This document shows, piece after piece, positions 22,965 through 28,126 of a stretch of DNA of 64,000 bases; within the stretch, counting starts at the first letter, position 1, and the number at the start of each line of letters is the position of its first letter. The stretch lies in the NCBI GenBank assembly GCA_050506795.1, contig JBJHCF010000009.1:32001-96000 (forward strand). Direction: 5' to 3'. A program made the position numbers and the translations under genes. Origin of the DNA: Opitutia bacterium. GTDB taxonomy: Bacteria > Verrucomicrobiota > Verrucomicrobiia > Opitutales > T3Sed10-336. The notes beneath the pieces were generated by a model, which had not been told where the DNA came from, ran no database searches, and saw only the letters and a program-made list of their open reading frames with translations.

Positions 22965-23375
22965 TTACCTCCAGTCTTCCAGTCTCAGTCCTGGGAAGTC
23001 CTGGAAGTGCCGGACATTCAAAGTGGCGAGAACTAGCCCGTGGTGAAGGGCCGTGGCGGCGATCAGCAGGTCGAAATCCGCCCGGGGGAGTCCCGCGGCT
23101 TCCTGTTCGGCTTTAAGCCGGGCAAAGACGGCGGCAACCCCTTTGTCCACGGCCAGTACCGTGAGACGATCCTCCAGATAGTCGCGGTACTCCCGCCAGA
23201 GACGGTCTGATTGTTTTTTCTCCAGACCGTAAAGCAGTTCGGCTTCCGCTATGGCGGGGATTGCCAGAGCCGAATCGCCCAGTTCCCGCCAACGCCGAAT
23301 CACCACTGGCAGCGGGTGAGGGCGCAGCCGCTGGGAGTAGACGCTGGTATCAAGCAGGTGAGTGATGGTTGCCAT
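22965..23375 (-). CDS. vapC: VapC-family PIN-domain toxin
   Basis: LLDTSV, AELLYG, DFDLLIAATA and LATLNVRHF PIN motifs. Confidence 0.9.
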   Translation of the reverse strand: MATITHLLDTSVYSQRLRPHPLPVVIRRWRELGDSALAIPAIAEAELLYGLEKKQSDRLWREYRDYLEDRLTVLAVDKGVAAVFARLKAEQEAAGLPRADFDLLIAATALHHGLVLATLNVRHFQDFPGLRLEDWR

Positions 23376-23624
23376 TTAGAACGGGGTGGGGCGGTTGCGG
23401 GCGGGATTCCTGGCCGGCAGCTCCAGCTCTTCCGTAATCGGCCCGTAACGGGCCTGGGCCTCCTCCACCGTATCCCAGACCGACCCGGAGGACTCGTCCA
23501 CCGGCACTATTCTCACCAGGGGCTTTCCCCTCCGCGTAACCGTGCACGGCTCACCGCTCCGGGCCACCTGGTCGCAAATCTCGGACAGACGATTCTTGGC
23601 ATCAAACAGACCAAAGGACTTCAC
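23376..23624 (-). CDS. Phd/YefM-family antitoxin
   Basis: GTG start at 23624 gives KSFGLFDAKNRLSEICDQVARSGEPCTVTRRGKPLVRIVP. The gene abuts vapC. Confidence 0.88.
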   Translation of the reverse strand: MKSFGLFDAKNRLSEICDQVARSGEPCTVTRRGKPLVRIVPVDESSGSVWDTVEEAQARYGPITEELELPARNPARNRPTPF

Positions 23625-23659
23625 AAAAGACAATCTAGCTGTCTGGCTGTTTTTGTCAA
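23624..23659 (-). promoter_or_regulatory. Sigma70-type promoter with overlapping operator; leaderless start for TA operon 1
   Basis: Minus strand reads TTGACA-N16-TAGATT-N7-GTG. The inverted repeat AGACA-GCTAGAT-TGTCT covers the -10. Confidence 0.65.
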
Positions 23660-23761
23660 TCCTGAGTGTGGACGATTCGTTATCGGAAGCAGGGTAGCGA
23701 ATGGCACGGTTAGGGCGGTGGATCGAAGGCGCATAGCTAAATCGCATCGGCCGTTCCCCTG

Positions 23762-25637
23762 ATAGGGGTAGGGACGACGCATTGGTTTGCGTCGCCCCTC
23801 CCTCCGAACCGGACTGGCGGATCTCTCGCATCCGGCTCTCCAGTCAGCGCATTTTGCTCCGTTATGGAGACTGGAACTCCTTCACACGGGCTTCTTCCAG
23901 GCAGAAGAGCCCGAGCTCTGCAAAGTAGCGGTTGGGCCAACGTTGATGATCCACGCCTCGGGCTCTCCCACGAAGCTTCTTTCGCTTGCGCAGGATCGCT
24001 CGCAGACGTCCTCGCACCCAGCCATCCATCTCTCCAAGGGCTGCCGGTTCGGCTTGTTTGAAGTAGCCATACCAGCCTTTCAGGCTCGGATTGATTTTCT
24101 GAATGATTGCGTTCATGCACTCTCCGTTGGTCCGTTTGGTCAGGGGCTTGAGACGGGCTTTGAGCCTCTGGCGGCTTTTCGGCCGGATGTAGCGCGCGAT
24201 GCGGCCGCGTTTGTTTCGCCAAAACCGGTAGCCGAGGAAGTCGAAGTGACTCCCCGATTCGGTCAGCGCCACAACCCGCGTCTTTTGCGGGTGCAACTGC
24301 AATCCCGCCTCTCTCATCCAGCTTTCAACTTCAGCCAGCGCTCGTTGCGCCGTCTCCGCGTCGCGGCACAGGACGACCATGTCGTCGGCATACCGCACCA
24401 TTTCGTAGCCCTTTTCCTTCAGCAGATGATCCAGAGGATTGAGGTAAATGTTCGCCAAGAGCGGGCTGATGATTCCGCCTTGCGGCGTGCCTTCCTCCCT
24501 TTCGGCCTCCACTTCCATTCCCTCCATCACGCCTGCTTTCAGGAATCCTTCGATCATTCCCAGCACACGCCTGTCGGCGATGCGTCCCCCGACCAGCTTC
24601 ATCAGCCGGTCGTGGGGAATGGCGTCGAAGTAACCTTTGATGCCGATGTCCACGACGTGCGAATAGCCGCTTTTGAGCAGCGTGTCCACCTGCCGCAGAG
24701 CATCTTTGCATCCGCGTCCGGGACGGAATCCGTAACTAGCGGGAGAAAACTCGCTCTCGAAGATCGGTTCGATGACCATCCTCAAGGCGGTTTGCACCAC
24801 CCGGTCGCGCACCGTCGGGATTCCCAACGGACGTTTCTCCGGGCTGCCCGGTTTTGGAATCCAAACCCGTTTGATCGACTGGGGTTGGTAGGCGTTTCGT
24901 TCGATTTGCTCTTTCACGGCGAGCAACCGAGTTTGGCTGTCTTTTGCGAAACGTTTTACCGTAATGCCGTCCACGCCACAAGCCCCTGCGTTGGAATGCA
25001 CCTTTGCCCAAGCCAATTCAAGGGTCGTCGCCTTTGAGACTTTGTCGATAAGGCTGAACCACTTGTTTCCTTTGACCCCCTTGTCGAGGGCTTCCAGCAT
25101 CTTCTCGCTCCATATCCGGCGTTCGGCCTTATGGCGTTCCCACAAGTCCTCTTCTCCTTGTTTATCCGTTTCCGAAACTGACGGAGATTTTCCTTCGCTT
25201 TCCATGGTCATGGAAGATTCGCCTTCCTGCCGTCCTTGGCTCCACCGGCGTTACCCGGCTTCATCACTACTATGACGGCTCTGACTTCTGACGGCGTTCG
25301 CTTCCCGAACTCCTGATTCCGCCAGATCTCCATACGTCCACATGATACCTTCCCCGCGTTCTCACACCAACCACCCGCCGACGCCCATGACTGCATCCTT
25401 GGCGTCGGTCCTGACGCGTCATGGTCGCTCCTTCCGGAGCAGGCTTCGCCAATCCCTCGCAGGCTCGCCGCTTCAGTAGGCCAAATCGTGTTCACTCTCG
25501 TTTGGGACCGCAGGTCCGCTTCCGGCTGCTCCCCACCCCGCCTCACGGCGACGCAGTTGCCTTCAGCTGATCTTCCCCTTGACGCTTCGGAAGATTTTGG
25601 ACTTTCACCATTCGATTTCATGTATGTGTATTCGCAC
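23762..25637 (-). mobile_element. Group II intron (complete, 1876 nt)
   Basis: 5' end GTGCG at 25637 on the minus strand. Domain V GAGCCGGATGCGAGAGATCCGCCAGTCCGGTTC (23806-23838, AGC triad). Domain VI hairpin with a bulged A, ending CCCCTAT at 23762. Encodes an RT/maturase. Removing it restores the flanking palindrome. Confidence 0.92.
23862..25211 (-). CDS. ltrA: Group II intron reverse transcriptase/maturase (no endonuclease domain)
   Basis: GACGVDG (RT0), RPLGIPTVRDRVVQ, SYGFRPGR, GTPQGGIISPLLANIYL, RYADD, FDFLGY and the X domain GWYGYF. The protein ends without an HNH domain. Motif A reads VVDIGIKGYFD. Confidence 0.95.
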   Translation of the reverse strand: MTMESEGKSPSVSETDKQGEEDLWERHKAERRIWSEKMLEALDKGVKGNKWFSLIDKVSKATTLELAWAKVHSNAGACGVDGITVKRFAKDSQTRLLAVKEQIERNAYQPQSIKRVWIPKPGSPEKRPLGIPTVRDRVVQTALRMVIEPIFESEFSPASYGFRPGRGCKDALRQVDTLLKSGYSHVVDIGIKGYFDAIPHDRLMKLVGGRIADRRVLGMIEGFLKAGVMEGMEVEAEREEGTPQGGIISPLLANIYLNPLDHLLKEKGYEMVRYADDMVVLCRDAETAQRALAEVESWMREAGLQLHPQKTRVVALTESGSHFDFLGYRFWRNKRGRIARYIRPKSRQRLKARLKPLTKRTNGECMNAIIQKINPSLKGWYGYFKQAEPAALGEMDGWVRGRLRAILRKRKKLRGRARGVDHQRWPNRYFAELGLFCLEEARVKEFQSP

Positions 25638-25864
25638 GAGGGCGGCGCTCCCGCGCCGCCGGTGCGGGCAGGATGCCCGCGCTCCCAACCCGGCGGCGCG
25701 GGAGCATGGCCCTCCAGGCGAATTGCCGATGCGATATTTGCGAGCATTGATCGGCATGTCTTACCGAAGATTCTCAAATCCAAAATCTGCGATCTGAAAA
25801 GCGTTTTCAATCCGAAGGCAGGTTTCCTCTGGATTCCGGCGGTGTTGTGTGATACTGCAGGACA

Positions 25865-27445
25865 ATGCGTTATATCCTGGGCCTCGACCTCTCCACTCAA
25901 AGTTTCTCTTCGGTGCTTATCGATCCCGACGACAACCGGGTTGTCGATACGGAATCGGTGAATTTCGGCAAGGACCTCGCCCACTACCGCTCGCCGAACG
26001 GTTTTCTGCCGGAGACGGAGGACGGTCAGGTCCACTCCGATCCGCGCATGTGGCTGGAAGCGCTCGATCTGTTGCTGAACCGGATCCAGGCGAAAGGGAT
26101 CGATTTGAGCCGGGTGGCCGCGGTTTCCGGCGCCGGGCAACAGCATGGCAGCGTCTATCTCGACGCCGGCTGGTTCGACCGTCTGGCCGCCTTGAAGGCC
26201 GACGAACCATTGGTGGATCAAATCGCTCCCGCGTTTTCCCGCGCGACGTCTCCGATCTGGATGGACAGCTCGACCGGCGCGGAGTGCGCGGAAATCGCCG
26301 CAAGTCTCGGCGGCGCGGCGGAAGTCTGCGCCCGAAGCGGGTCGGTGGCGATCGAGCGGTTCACCGGGCCCCAGATCCGGGCGTTCTGGAAGCGCGATCC
26401 CGACGGCTACCGGCGCACCGCCCGTATTCATTTGGTCAGTTCGTTTATCGCGAGCCTTCTCGCCGGCCGCGATGCGCCCATCGACCACGGCGATGGAGCG
26501 GGCATGAACCTGGCGAATATTCATACTTGGAGCTGGGACGACGACCTGGCGAAGGCGACCGCGCCGGACCTCATTGAAAAACTGCCACCGCTGAAACCTT
26601 CGGCGACCGTGGTCGGAACGGTCGCGCCGTATTTCCAGAAAAAATACGGCTTCTCTCCGGAGGCGCAGGTCGTGGCGTTCACCGGGGACAATCCCAGCAG
26701 CCTGATCGGCATGGGCGCCGGCACACCCGGCCGGGTGGTCATCAGTCTCGGCACCAGCGACACCCTGTTCGCCGCGATGGAGGAATGCCACACCGATCCG
26801 CAGGGGTTCGGTCATGTCTTCGGCAATCCAACCGGCGGCTACATGAGTCTGCTCTGCTTCCGCAACGGTTCGCTGGCGCGAGAGAAGGTGCGCGACCGCC
26901 TGGGCGCGAGCTGGGACGATTTCGATGTCGACGGTTTGAGCACCACGCCGCCCGGAAACAACAACAACCTGATGATTCCCTTTTACGGCGCGGAGGTCAC
27001 CCCGCGCGGCTCCCTGCCTGAGCCGGCGCTTTCGGGCACCGATGCCTTCGTCCGCTACGAAGACAAACCGGCCGTCGTGCGCGCTTGCCTGGAGGGACAG
27101 TTCCTCAACATGTGGCTGCACACTCGCTGGCTGGCGCAGGAGACCTCGTCGATTTCACTGACCGGCGGCGCGTCGCAAAACAACGGCATCGCCCGAATGG
27201 TGGCCGACATCTTCGGCGCCGAGGTCAACCGCCTGGCGGTGTCGGGCTCGGTGGCGCTCGGTGGCGCGCTGCGCGCGGGGCAAACGGCGCTCGGACTCGA
27301 CGGAGCCGCGCTGGAGCAGGCCTTCTGCCGGCCGGATCCGGGCTCGACCGTACGACCCGATGCGAAGGCCACGGAGGTCTATCGCCAACAGGCGGAGCGT
27401 TTTCGCGAACTACTCGAAAAATCACTGCGCCCGCCGGAGGCTTGA
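25865..27445 (+). CDS. FGGY-family sugar kinase, eukaryote-type xylulokinase-like
   Basis: GLDLSTQ, SGAGQQHGSVY, SPIWMDSST, ERFTGPQI, LVSSF, FTGDNP, SLGTSDT, LCFRNGSLARE and TGGASQN. Confidence 0.85.
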   Translation: MRYILGLDLSTQSFSSVLIDPDDNRVVDTESVNFGKDLAHYRSPNGFLPETEDGQVHSDPRMWLEALDLLLNRIQAKGIDLSRVAAVSGAGQQHGSVYLDAGWFDRLAALKADEPLVDQIAPAFSRATSPIWMDSSTGAECAEIAASLGGAAEVCARSGSVAIERFTGPQIRAFWKRDPDGYRRTARIHLVSSFIASLLAGRDAPIDHGDGAGMNLANIHTWSWDDDLAKATAPDLIEKLPPLKPSATVVGTVAPYFQKKYGFSPEAQVVAFTGDNPSSLIGMGAGTPGRVVISLGTSDTLFAAMEECHTDPQGFGHVFGNPTGGYMSLLCFRNGSLAREKVRDRLGASWDDFDVDGLSTTPPGNNNNLMIPFYGAEVTPRGSLPEPALSGTDAFVRYEDKPAVVRACLEGQFLNMWLHTRWLAQETSSISLTGGASQNNGIARMVADIFGAEVNRLAVSGSVALGGALRAGQTALGLDGAALEQAFCRPDPGSTVRPDAKATEVYRQQAERFRELLEKSLRPPEA

Positions 27446-27478
27446 CAAAACATTAAACCAGACCAGACTTGGTCTGGT
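27442..27478 (+). promoter_or_regulatory. Sigma70-type promoter with operator palindrome; leaderless start for TA operon 2
   Basis: TTGACA (27442)-N16-CAGACT-N7-GTG (27477). Perfect inverted repeat ACCAGACCA-GACT-TGGTCTGGT at 27457-27478. Confidence 0.65.
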
Positions 27479-27752
27479 GAAGGTCGTTAATATCCAGAAC
27501 GCCAAAACCCACCTCTCCCGGTTGCTGGAGGACGTGGTTGCGGGAGAGGAGGTCGTGATTGCCAAAGCGGGCAAACCCATGGCTCGGCTTACGGCGTACG
27601 AAGAGACCCGCAAACCGCGGACCCTTGGGCTCTTGCGGGGAACGGTCACCGAAGCCCCCGACTGCTGGGAAGCGGATCCGGAAATCGAAGCGTGGTTTTA
27701 CGGCGCCGACGACCAATCGTCGCAGGATCGCGTCGCGGAAGACCGGAAATGA
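27477..27752 (+). CDS. Phd/YefM-family antitoxin
   Basis: GTG start gives KVVNIQNAKTHLSRLLEDVVAGEEVVIAKAGKPMARL. ATGA overlap with the toxin. Confidence 0.9.
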   Translation: MKVVNIQNAKTHLSRLLEDVVAGEEVVIAKAGKPMARLTAYEETRKPRTLGLLRGTVTEAPDCWEADPEIEAWFYGADDQSSQDRVAEDRK

Positions 27753-28126
27753 ACCTCCTTCTCGATTCCCATGCCTTGCTTTGGGCTCTGCACAATCCCG
27801 GAGAAATGCGGTCCGCCGCCCGCCAGGCCTTGGAGAATCCGGAAAACCTGGTGTTTTTCAGCGCCGGGGCGGTGTGGGAGCTTGAGTTGAAAGCGGCCAA
27901 AGGAAAACTGGTGTTGCCGAAAGGATGGCTGGAGGCGGCGGGGGAGACCGGTTTTCGGGAGTTGCCGGTGACTGCGGAGGACGCCGCCGCCAGCGCCCGG
28001 CTGCCCTGGCATCACAACGATCCCTTCGATCGCCTTTTCATCGCCAAGGCCGCACGGCGAGGTTGGAGCCTGGCCACCCGCGACGCCTTCTCTCCCCGGT
28101 ACGCGGTCCGTATACTGCCGGTATAA
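27749..28126 (+). CDS. vapC: VapC-family PIN-domain toxin
   Basis: MNLLLDSHALLW, WELELKAAKGKL, LPWHHNDPFDRLFIA and LATRD. Confidence 0.92.
   Translation: MNLLLDSHALLWALHNPGEMRSAARQALENPENLVFFSAGAVWELELKAAKGKLVLPKGWLEAAGETGFRELPVTAEDAAASARLPWHHNDPFDRLFIAKAARRGWSLATRDAFSPRYAVRILPV

What the first reader, a model, noticed from the sequence alone, without database searches (positions are those of the whole stretch)
23741..25735. Group II intron with an AGC triad inserted into a REP/REPIN palindrome, 3 nt after a hairpin
Seen: deleting 23762-25637 rebuilds a palindrome with 46-bp arms (40/46 paired), and the junction CCTG|GAGGG pairs with CCCTCCAGG in the other arm, which independently fixes both splice sites. 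The 5' exon ends in hairpin GGCGGCGC-GGGA-GCGCCGCC plus CTC. A candidate EBS1 GAGGG (minus strand of 25454-25458, in a GCC/GGC-closed loop) complements the exon end CCCTC. Established: insertion after stem-loops is the hallmark of class IIC introns, which have a CGC triad and a short domain V. This intron has an AGC triad and no endonuclease. Inference: a non-IIC lineage that homes to a multicopy intergenic repeat as a safe harbour.
Basis: partly seen in the sequence, partly recalled or inferred. Interest (0 to 1): 0.75.

Follow-up and report, generated by a model that had tools for sequence, protein, structure and literature searches.

The report
Hairpin-seeking group II intron in REP
A self-splicing mobile intron sits in one copy of a palindromic repeat that is common in this bacterium, and most of its relatives sit at the same fixed distance behind unrelated DNA hairpins with six matching bases, a landing rule that resembles but differs from the one worked out for class C introns; this copy's reverse transcriptase looks disabled.

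Summary
Confirmed: a full-length, endonuclease-free group II intron (23762-25637, minus strand, AGC triad) interrupts a GGAG-tagged REP-like palindrome that has 39 exact empty copies in the genome. Its protein lies outside class C, in a well-supported clade with an intron that Miura 2022 labels 'Unclassified' (U1 or U2, inferred). Across 75 distinct insertion sites of the clade, EBS1 pairs with exon positions -1 to -5 (63-69 of 75 per position), EBS3 with +1 (65 of 71), and no EBS2 was found. Flank sequences are unrelated, yet 61 of 75 carry a hairpin in a fixed register (loop near -13) against 5% of controls, also at non-REP sites (11 of 14). In 40 of 54 junctions the cut lies inside a GTAG/GGAG/GCAG/GTGG REP tag. 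Best reading: a class-C-related lineage that reads a spacer-less DNA hairpin plus six bases; REPs are its usual landing pad, not one fixed repeat. Hairpin recognition is inferred, not assayed. Miura 2022 already reported U1/U2/g6 introns just behind terminators, and the g6 reference also has AGC, so this is a new variant, not a new kind. This copy has Gly at a conserved RT aspartate and is probably immobile.

The parts
23762..25637 (-). Group II intron, 1876 nt
   Evidence: GTGCG...AT ends, RF00029, 39 exact empty target copies, 5' profile of relatives starts at 25637
23862..25211 (-). Intron-encoded protein, 449 aa, RT plus maturase, no endonuclease; C-terminus lacks the 25-30 aa segment seen in class C and g6 references
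   Evidence: model pLDDT 86.8, best fold match GsI-IIC RT Z 34.8, rmsd 2.4, 387 aligned
24642..24644 (-). Codon 190: Gly where relatives have the conserved RT3 aspartate; probable loss of RT activity
   Evidence: Asp in 29 of 30 rows of alignment A1, the query being the exception; aligns with the second Asp of VVDMD in GsI-IIC RT; its catalytic role is recalled
24381..24392 (-). YADD motif, intact
   Evidence: residues 274-277
25331..25632 (-). Domain I (intron 6-307)
   Evidence: consensus fold and covarying pairs from 46 relatives
25578..25588 (-). Loop carrying candidate alpha
   Evidence: longest complementary run to the alpha-prime hairpin averages 4.8 nt in 75 rows against 3.4 after shuffling partners, maximum 3.7
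25482..25482 (-). delta-prime G (pairs with delta C at 25459)
   Evidence: pair 156-179 kept in 98% of 46 rows with two pair types; delta is C in 72 of 75
25454..25458 (-). EBS1, GAGGG, 5 nt
   Evidence: Watson-Crick with exon -1..-5 in 67, 68, 69, 67, 63 of 75 against 27, 37, 44, 21, 26 when permuted
25387..25424 (-). Hairpin 3' of the EBS1 stem with candidate alpha-prime at its tip (E/F-like placement)
   Evidence: E/F feature as described in PMC3753933
25371..25371 (-). EBS3, G
   Evidence: Watson-Crick with exon +1 in 65 of 71 against 38.7 permuted, maximum 46
25284..25329 (-). Domain II (approximate)
   Evidence: consensus fold
25228..25280 (-). Domain III (approximate)
   Evidence: consensus fold
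23806..23838 (-). Domain V, AGC triad, 33 nt, 5-nt loop; the loop-closing pair is A-C here
   Evidence: closing pair G-C in 72 of 74 matched rows, A-T in 1, A-C only here
23764..23805 (-). Domain VI with bulged A at 23769 (8 nt from the 3' end)
   Evidence: fold
25641..25660 (-). Target hairpin in the 5' exon: 8-bp stem (-4..-11 with -16..-23), loop -12..-15
   Evidence: DNA fold -12.7 kcal/mol for the last 38 nt
25638..25642 (-). IBS1, CCCTC; overlaps the two bottom pairs of the hairpin
23761..23761 (-). IBS3, C; with the last three exon bases it is the complement of the repeat's GGAG tag, so the intron splits the tag
25638..25735 (.). 5' part of the composite repeat: far arm 25690-25735, central GGAG-tagged hairpin 25664-25686, near arm 25638-25662
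23741..23761 (.). Rest of the near arm in the 3' exon; the repeat's conserved flank runs on to about 23707
   Evidence: loose ends of 8 contigs at 23707
22965..23660 (-). Context: Phd/YefM antitoxin and VapC (PIN) gene pair just downstream
25865..27445 (+). Context: FGGY (xylulokinase-like) kinase, divergent; the intron lies between two divergent genes and breaks no ORF with a family hit

Best explanation
A mobile group II intron of an unnamed lineage that neighbours classes C and g6 (Miura's 'Unclassified', U1 or U2). The excised intron RNA with its protein reverse-splices into single-stranded DNA (inferred from the missing endonuclease, by analogy with class C and RmInt1), at sites chosen by two things: six base pairs (EBS1 with -1..-5, EBS3 with +1; shown by covariation) and a short GC-rich DNA hairpin whose stem covers about -6..-11 and whose loop sits near -13 (shown as a statistical pattern; recognition is inferred). 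There is no EBS2; the hairpin takes its place, with no spacer between stem and IBS1. REP-type repeats fit this shape, and most members of the main branch have EBS3 plus EBS1 spelling the REP tag and the first stem bases, so they cut inside the tag on the opposite strand. Here the intron reads the host's GGAG repeat family (233 loose matches). This copy probably cannot retrohome by itself because of Gly at a conserved RT aspartate.
For: Covariation: per-position pairing 63-69 of 75 at -1..-5, falling to 19 and 18 of 75 at -6 and -7; 49 of 75 perfect 5/5 pairs of 25 different types; in 37 disjoint nearest-neighbour pairs 76 of 98 EBS1 differences are matched on both sides. No EBS2 window found; delta-prime to EBS1 is 24-26 nt in 75 of 75. 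Hairpin axis at -12.5..-14.5 in 57 of 75 against 10.8% of 620 control cuts; fixed-register test 61 of 75 against 5.1% of 1240, 3-10 of 75 when the cut is moved 2-10 nt, 11 of 14 at non-REP junctions, 6 of 8 in the GTACG-starting branch. Only 355 of 4034 genomic CCCTC|C sites pass the test, so six bases alone do not give the pattern. Tree: lineage 100/99, class C 100/99, separate, both inside a 99/97 group that excludes F, D, E, G, A, CL, ML references. The protein lacks the class C C-terminal segment that falls in the DNA-binding domain, which in E.r. contacts the spacer (PMC10190682), matching a target without a spacer.
Against: No mobility or splicing assay; the reads laid were contigs and showed no joint that skips the intron. 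14 of 75 sites fail the hairpin test and 6 of 75 have 3 or fewer EBS1 pairs. The fixed-register test was defined after seeing the pattern. Rows are related and six come from one genome. In 38 and 56 of 67 main-branch sites, positions -4 and -5 can pair both with EBS1 and within the hairpin, so the base of the stem must open; not tested. Strand bias to the lagging template was not tested. A pattern seen in surviving insertions can come from selection as well as from targeting.
Confidence: 0.7

Rival explanations
1. The hairpin acts at the RNA level: it helps define the 5' splice site or damps read-through transcription, so insertions behind hairpins survive while DNA targeting uses only base pairs and protein contacts.
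For: A stem-loop is implicated in 5' exon recognition during self-splicing of the IIC intron B.h.I1 (title and abstract start of PMC1702495, search listing). Miura 2022 argues that insertion behind terminators limits transcription.
Against: The sites have no T tract (T is 25% of -1..-5), so they are not intrinsic terminators; silencing would not need a loop fixed to within about 2 nt. Intergenic introns are under little pressure to splice exactly (inference).
Confidence: 0.14
2. Plain sequence homing into a repeat: EBS1, EBS3 and protein contacts read the conserved REP end, and the hairpin comes along because REPs are hairpins and are harmless places.
For: 40 of 54 junctions split a GTAG/GGAG/GCAG/GTGG tag. 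Empty copies of relatives' targets exist in their genomes: 6; 3 and 2; 0 and 4; 12 exact pattern matches in the six searches of five genomes.
Against: 11 of 14 junctions without such a tag and 6 of 8 GTACG-branch sites keep the same register. Stem sequences differ freely between sites. Six bases occur about 4000 times in this genome.
Confidence: 0.1
3. The intron rides on REP-processing HUH transposases (RAYT or IS200/IS605 TnpA), which expose or nick these hairpins and supply a primer.
For: Targets include REP tags and, in the GTACG branch, hairpins that look like IS200/IS605 ends (likeness recalled, not tested). The genome has 16 Y1_Tnp matches.
Against: The intron enters the strand opposite the tagged hairpin that RAYT binds (tag 5' of the hairpin foot, PMC6006769). 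No transposase clearly cognate to this repeat was found among the 16. Many sites have no tag.
Confidence: 0.04
4. An ordinary class C intron with a variant triad.
For: Best PDB sequence and fold matches are class C proteins; the EBS1 stem-loop motif and lack of EBS2 resemble class C.
Against: Separate clades in three trees; AGC and 33-nt domain V against CGC and 30 nt in both class C references; 5-bp EBS1; no spacer; C-terminal segment absent. The PDB list held no protein from the closer unclassified groups or from classes D, E, F.
Confidence: 0.02

Closest known systems
Miura et al. 2022 'Unclassified' U1/U2 bacterial group II introns (example: Paraburkholderia aromaticivorans pBN3, NZ_CP022993 23112-24969)
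   Same: The pBN3 protein falls in the query's clade (100/99; 49.5% identity) and is labelled Unclassified. The paper places U1 and U2 near C and g6 and reports them immediately after predicted terminators.
   Different: In the passages and section read, the paper gives no RNA structure, EBS rule, hairpin register or link to REPs. U1 versus U2 could not be told: the table does not split them and the figures were not visible.
Class C (IIC) introns: E.r. IIC, GsI-IIC, B.h.I1, IIC-attC
   Same: No endonuclease, no EBS2, short EBS1 plus EBS3, DNA hairpin upstream, similar EBS1 stem-loop with a GA/GAA internal loop (one reference compared).
   Different: E.r. target: 4-nt IBS1 plus 4-nt spacer, then a 9-12 bp stem (PMC10190682), so the stem base is at -9 and the loop near -22 (my arithmetic). 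Here 5-nt IBS1, no spacer, loop near -13, no T tract; AGC and 33-nt domain V; alpha-prime on a hairpin; protein in another clade and without the class C C-terminal segment.
Variety g6 (D.p.I1 of Desulfotalea psychrophila)
   Same: AGC triad, inserted behind a hairpin, RNA described as class-C-like (PMC4244168).
   Different: Groups with class C, not with the query (90/95), keeps the C-terminal segment, target is a long stem with a T tract. One reference only.
Classes E and F (IIE, IIF)
   Same: AGC, 5-nt domain V loop, alpha-prime at the tip of a stem-loop, no endonuclease (PMC3753933); short C-terminus like the F references.
   Different: They have a covarying EBS2-IBS2; the F, E and D references show no hairpin at this register by inspection and branch apart.
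GTAG-type REPs and REPINs (the target)
   Same: Tag of four bases 5' of a GC-rich 8-bp hairpin, multicopy, mostly intergenic, often in inverted pairs; GTAG repeats with degenerate tags are known from the PVC superphylum (PMC3733652).
   Different: The tag is GGAG, a variant not named in the passages read; no cognate RAYT shown; the unit here is a composite of about 150 bp with a third hairpin in the middle.

Membership tests
Group II intron (retroelement form) | GUGYG...AY ends, six domains, domain V triad, bulged A in domain VI | tested here: met
Group II intron (retroelement form) | RT/maturase ORF in domain IV | tested here: met
   TIGR04416 397 bits, cut-off 300; RVT_1 and GIIM
Group II intron (retroelement form) | Intact RT active site | tested here: not met
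   YADD intact, but Gly at the RT3 Asp that 29 of 29 aligned relatives keep
Group II intron (retroelement form) | Splices and retrohomes | not testable with these tools
   contig-only runs; no joint skipping the intron listed
Class C (IIC) | Protein in the class C clade | tested here: not met
   separate clades, 100/99 each; two labelled class C references only
Class C (IIC) | CGC triad and short domain V | tested here: not met
   AGC, 33 nt against CGC, 30 nt in both references
Class C (IIC) | No EBS2; short EBS1 plus EBS3 | tested here: met
   EBS1 is 5 bp rather than 3-4
Class C (IIC) | Insertion behind a DNA stem-loop | tested here: met
   61 of 75, but in another register than E.r. IIC
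Variety g6 | Protein in the g6 clade | tested here: not met
   D.p.I1 branches next to class C, not with the query; one reference
Classes E and F | Protein in the E or F clade | tested here: not met
   three F references and one E reference
Classes E and F | EBS2-IBS2 pairing | tested here: not met
   no covarying window upstream of -6; 24-26 nt between delta-prime and EBS1 in 75 of 75
Classes E and F | 5-nt domain V loop; alpha-prime on a stem-loop tip | tested here: met
Miura 2022 Unclassified U1/U2 | Protein groups with an intron labelled Unclassified that lies near C and g6 | tested here: met
Miura 2022 Unclassified U1/U2 | Which of U1, U2 (or U3) | tested here: inconclusive
   Table 3 does not split them; figures and the pptx supplement could not be read; U3 is described as next to class A, which this clade is not
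REP (target) | Four-base tag 5' of a short GC-rich hairpin | tested here: met
   GGAG precedes 91 of 1384 perfect 8-bp hairpins, the commonest tag
REP (target) | Multicopy and extragenic | tested here: met
   76 copies within 2 mismatches, 12 of them under a crude ORF mask that covers 82% of the genome
REPIN (target) | Two REPs in inverted orientation | tested here: met
   144 of 233 loose matches lie in inverted pairs under 150 nt apart
REPIN (target) | Cognate RAYT flanked by the same REPs | tested here: inconclusive
   1 of 16 Y1_Tnp loci has the repeat nearby, and that gene carries its own different palindromes inside the repeat; draft genome of 82 contigs

The most novel reading that the evidence does not exclude
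The clade is a separate class of group II introns in which a spacer-less DNA hairpin lies directly against a 5-bp IBS1, in the position where IIA and IIB introns form the EBS2-IBS2 duplex (register recalled), held without the class C C-terminal segment. It would be a living intermediate, or an independent second solution, between IIC shape reading and IIB base-pair reading, and a retroelement whose main branch parasitises REP tags by retuning five guide bases per host.
Probability: 0.4. Interest if true: 0.8.

Novelty: new variant of a known kind. Interest (0 to 1): 0.6.

Why it matters
The cryo-EM paper on the E.r. intron calls the DNA stem-loop motif exclusive to IIC introns and proposes that EBS2 evolved to imitate that stem (PMC10190682). 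This lineage has IIB/E/F-like RNA parts, a non-C protein, no EBS2 and a hairpin about 9 nt closer to the cut, so it makes that proposal directly testable by structure and mutagenesis. It also gives a sequence rule for the coarse 'behind terminators' signal that Miura 2022 saw for unclassified introns, and adds group II introns to the elements that land in REPs. A five-base guide that varies freely (36 EBS1 types in 75) plus a generic hairpin could be retargeted to repeat families.

Tried and rejected
Same repeat in relatives: rejected, flanks are unrelated. Terminator as target: the scan of 23500-25900 found no terminator-like site at the junction, and its one promoter-like hit is within the range of shuffles; T content of the exon ends is 25%. 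EBS2: scan of 4-nt exon windows at 22 offsets against 320 intron columns; only windows with at least 15 of 75 matches were permuted, and only those overlapping EBS1 clearly exceeded the permutations; a mobile EBS2 register could be missed. Other copies in the genome: none by blastn or by a 5' profile. Splicing or an empty allele of this locus: 4 of 22 listed runs laid, all contigs; no joint skipping 23762-25637 was listed, which proves nothing; the RNA run holds a relative of about 95% identity and cannot show transcription. Cognate RAYT: not found. The count 'AGC in 76 of 76 3' ends' is not used as evidence because the search pattern required AG[CT]. Search for g6 rows in the Miura table by label failed; one g6 reference was reached by organism name. 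Literature: ten searches showed no paper describing this target rule or group II introns in REP tags; the library lacks most subscription papers and theses, and Simon 2008, Robart 2007, Mohr 2018 and Wu 2018 were not read.
Full report
1. Observation. The minus strand from 25637 to 23762 is a 1876-nt element that starts GTGCG and ends AT. Rfam RF00029 matches 23840-23762. The ORF 25211-23862 encodes 449 aa with RVT_1 and GIIM, passes TIGR04416 (397 against 300) and shows no endonuclease family. Removing the element gives arms that match at 40 of 46 positions. The empty 24-nt target occurs 39 times exactly, 61 times with one mismatch and 76 times with two. In the run that may be the source of this DNA, contigs covering the stretch show no differences, and other contigs leave the stretch at 23761 and 25638 with the letters expected of empty repeat copies (6 and 5 contigs, low consensus agreement). 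The intron is single-copy in the 82-contig genome and lies between a Phd/VapC pair and a divergent FGGY kinase.

2. The target. It is a composite of about 150 bp: two GGAG-tagged 8-bp hairpins in inverted orientation around a third hairpin. GGAG is the commonest four-base word before a perfect 8-bp hairpin in the genome (91 of 1384). A loose pattern finds 233 copies, 144 in inverted pairs; 12 of 76 close copies fall under an ORF mask that covers 82% of the genome. That is REP anatomy as described in PMC3733652 and PMC6006769 (passages). Of 16 Y1_Tnp matches none is clearly the cognate RAYT, so I call it REP-like. The intron is on the strand opposite the tag and splits it: the last three exon bases and the first base of the 3' exon are the tag's complement.

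3. Relatives and rows used. I held 197 loci: 65 from genomes, 80 from metagenomes, 30 from a 401-genome class search and 22 plasmid stretches. A 5' profile gave 108 hits. I kept starts reading GTGCG or GTGTG at the profile start and added a GTACG-starting branch from 18 loci; I dropped six hits (L116, L122, L124, L130, L171 with partial profile matches, L080 minus-strand fragment) and five without a canonical start (L027, L031, L115, L120, L174). This left 96 rows, 75 with at least 28 nt of exon and distinct last 20 nt. 3' ends were found for 76 of 96, 71 distinct with a 3' exon. Boundaries were set from intron sequence only, so the exon tests are not circular. Named hosts are mostly Verrucomicrobiota, with Planctomycetota and betaproteobacteria.

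4. Base-pair code. Intron position 180 is the one place of 395 that follows the exon end (84 of 93 rows, next best 40). Watson-Crick pairing at -1..-5 is 67, 68, 69, 67, 63 of 75 against permutation means of 27, 37, 44, 21, 26; at -6 and -7 it is 19 and 18 against 12 and 17. There are 36 EBS1 types; 49 of 75 pair 5/5, 6 of 75 pair at three or fewer; in 37 disjoint nearest-neighbour pairs 76 of 98 EBS1 differences are matched on both sides. Contigs of close relatives in three other runs carry a different fourth EBS1 base (25455). EBS3 is position 267: 65 of 71 against 38.7. No EBS2 signal was found, and delta-prime to EBS1 is 24-26 nt in all 75, against about 40 nt in one F reference by my reading of the same output.

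5. Hairpin rule. Mean pairing probability is 0.78-0.93 at -5..-10, 0.12-0.26 at -12..-14 and 0.78-0.91 at -16..-20, against a flat 0.42-0.47 in 310 control cuts. The best hairpin has its axis at -12.5..-14.5 in 57 of 75 against 10.8% of 620 controls. A fixed-register test, defined after seeing this, passes 61 of 75 against 5.1% of 1240 controls and 3-10 of 75 when the cut is moved by 2-10 nt. The distance from stem base to cut varies from 0 to 6, mode 3 (26 of 75), so the loop is the constant. In the main branch 40 of 54 junctions read GTAG (16), GGAG (16), GCAG (4) or GTGG (4) on the other strand; 0 of 6 in the GTACG branch do. The register holds with tag (35 of 40), without (11 of 14), in the GTACG branch (6 of 8) and where the 3' side is unknown (9 of 13). 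For relatives' targets, exact patterns found 6; 3 and 2; 0 and 4; and 12 empty copies in their genomes, so most are small repeat families. Only 355 of 4034 CCCTC|C sites of this genome pass the test.

6. Class. Labelled references were taken from Table 3 of Miura 2022 (PMC8919778; rows seen) and fetched from plasmids. In a 75-row quick tree, a 116-row quick tree with 94 of 150 cluster representatives and a 49-row bootstrap tree, the query groups with the pBN3 intron labelled Unclassified (100/99), apart from class C (100/99) and g6, all within a 99/97 group that excludes F, D, E, G, A, CL and ML references. References are few: two C, one g6, three F. The RNA mixes features: an EBS1 stem-loop like the one class C reference compared and no EBS2; AGC, a 5-nt domain V loop and alpha-prime on a hairpin as described for E and F (PMC3753933 parts 1-2 of 7 and passages). 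The g6 reference also has AGC, so the triad alone proves little. The protein lacks 25-30 residues present near the C-terminus of the C and g6 references; its fold is that of group II RTs.

7. Mechanism. Shown: the six-base code and the hairpin register as patterns. Inferred: reverse splicing into single-stranded DNA at replication forks, as for other endonuclease-free introns (PMC4424553 passages), with the hairpin read by shape. In the E.r. IIC complex a 4-nt IBS1 and a 4-nt spacer precede a 9-12 bp stem, and the DNA-binding domain grips the spacer (PMC10190682 passages). Here there is no spacer and that protein segment is short, which fits a different docking in which the stem abuts IBS1 and its two bottom pairs open for EBS1. 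PMC3898094 (passages) already says the IIC hairpin seems to replace IBS2; that the stem here falls on the usual IBS2 positions rests on my recall of those positions.

8. State of this copy. Residue 190 is Gly where 29 of 29 aligned relatives have Asp; among 122 pattern matches in 141 proteins, 119 have Asp, two are mis-hits and one is the query. The 94%-identical relative L068 and contigs of two other runs have Asp, while the possible source run agrees with the window. The position aligns with the second Asp of VVDMD in GsI-IIC RT, a catalytic residue by my recall; PMC12337344 (passages) states only that three aspartates form the site. Domain V also has a unique A-C at the loop-closing pair. 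A disabled RT fits one copy among more than 200 possible sites.

9. What is known. Miura 2022 (section 9 read whole; passages) reports g6, U1 and U2 introns immediately after predicted terminators and near class C in the tree. Toro 2013 (parts 1-3 of 4) and Toro 2014 (passages) define g1-g6 and call g6 RNA class-C-like. Sonbol 2021 (PMC7923331 passages) speculates on upstream hairpins for a few IIB introns. PMC7306698, PMC12584367 and PMC4028801 (passages) credit hairpin targeting to class C; a 2026 preprint (passages) had nothing on this. Ten searches showed no description of the five-base guide, the register or the cut inside REP tags; unread subscription papers, theses and Miura's figure supplement could hold it. 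Earlier notes of this scan describe what looks like the same lineage in other genomes; they are not independent support, and my hairpin and EBS counts were made before I saw them.

10. Verdict. Observation confirmed; interpretation partly supported; new variant of a known kind; interest 0.6.

Noticed in passing
L178:2729 (NZ_CP022993 about 106771): Two identical pBN3 introns in direct tandem; the second starts right after the first's 3' end, where EBS1 pairs at only 1 of 5 positions. Possibly a dimer or duplication rather than homing.
   Followed up: partly
L038, L040, L066, L118, L128, L136 and others, 5' ends: A betaproteobacterial branch starts GTACG instead of GTGCG and sits behind hairpins that look like IS200/IS605 ends or ends of an integrase plus IS91-type element (likeness recalled), with the axis about 1 nt closer.
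   Followed up: partly
L180 (NZ_CP024940 562000-567200): An 'Unclassified' intron ORF appears nested inside a class C intron: a class C-type 5' end behind a terminator, then two RT ORFs.
   Followed up: no
G000:C36:49942-50421: A short Y1 transposase with a Y---Q-HH motif (subclass 1.2-like) and its own palindromes lies inside one copy of the same GGAG repeat, so the repeat hosts a second kind of passenger.
   Followed up: partly
G000:C16:89222-90378: A RAYT-like gene with several GTAG-tagged hairpins of a different REP family around and within it.
   Followed up: no
G000:C3:1-960, C31:2579-3674, C14:87888-87940, C14:19387-19421: Other group II remnants in the genome: a CGC-triad class C-like 3' part with a 34-nt-type domain V, a split RT, a 3' fragment of another class and a degenerate domain V/VI.
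   Followed up: no
L170:1431, L174, G106:C24 and G382:C26: Matches to the 5' and 3' ends lie only a few hundred bases apart, suggesting ORF-less members of this lineage.
   Followed up: no
window 22965-23660 and 27453-28126: Two toxin-antitoxin-like pairs near the intron: Phd/YefM with VapC (family hits) and a second pair judged from the ORF list only.
   Followed up: no
L188 domain V: The g6 intron D.p.I1 has an AGC triad in a short domain V although its RNA is described as class-C-like.
   Followed up: partly
P0031, P0041, P0042, P0048, P0070, P0082 and neighbours: Several further unlabelled clades lie between this lineage, C/g6 and F in the tree; their target rules are unknown.
   Followed up: no
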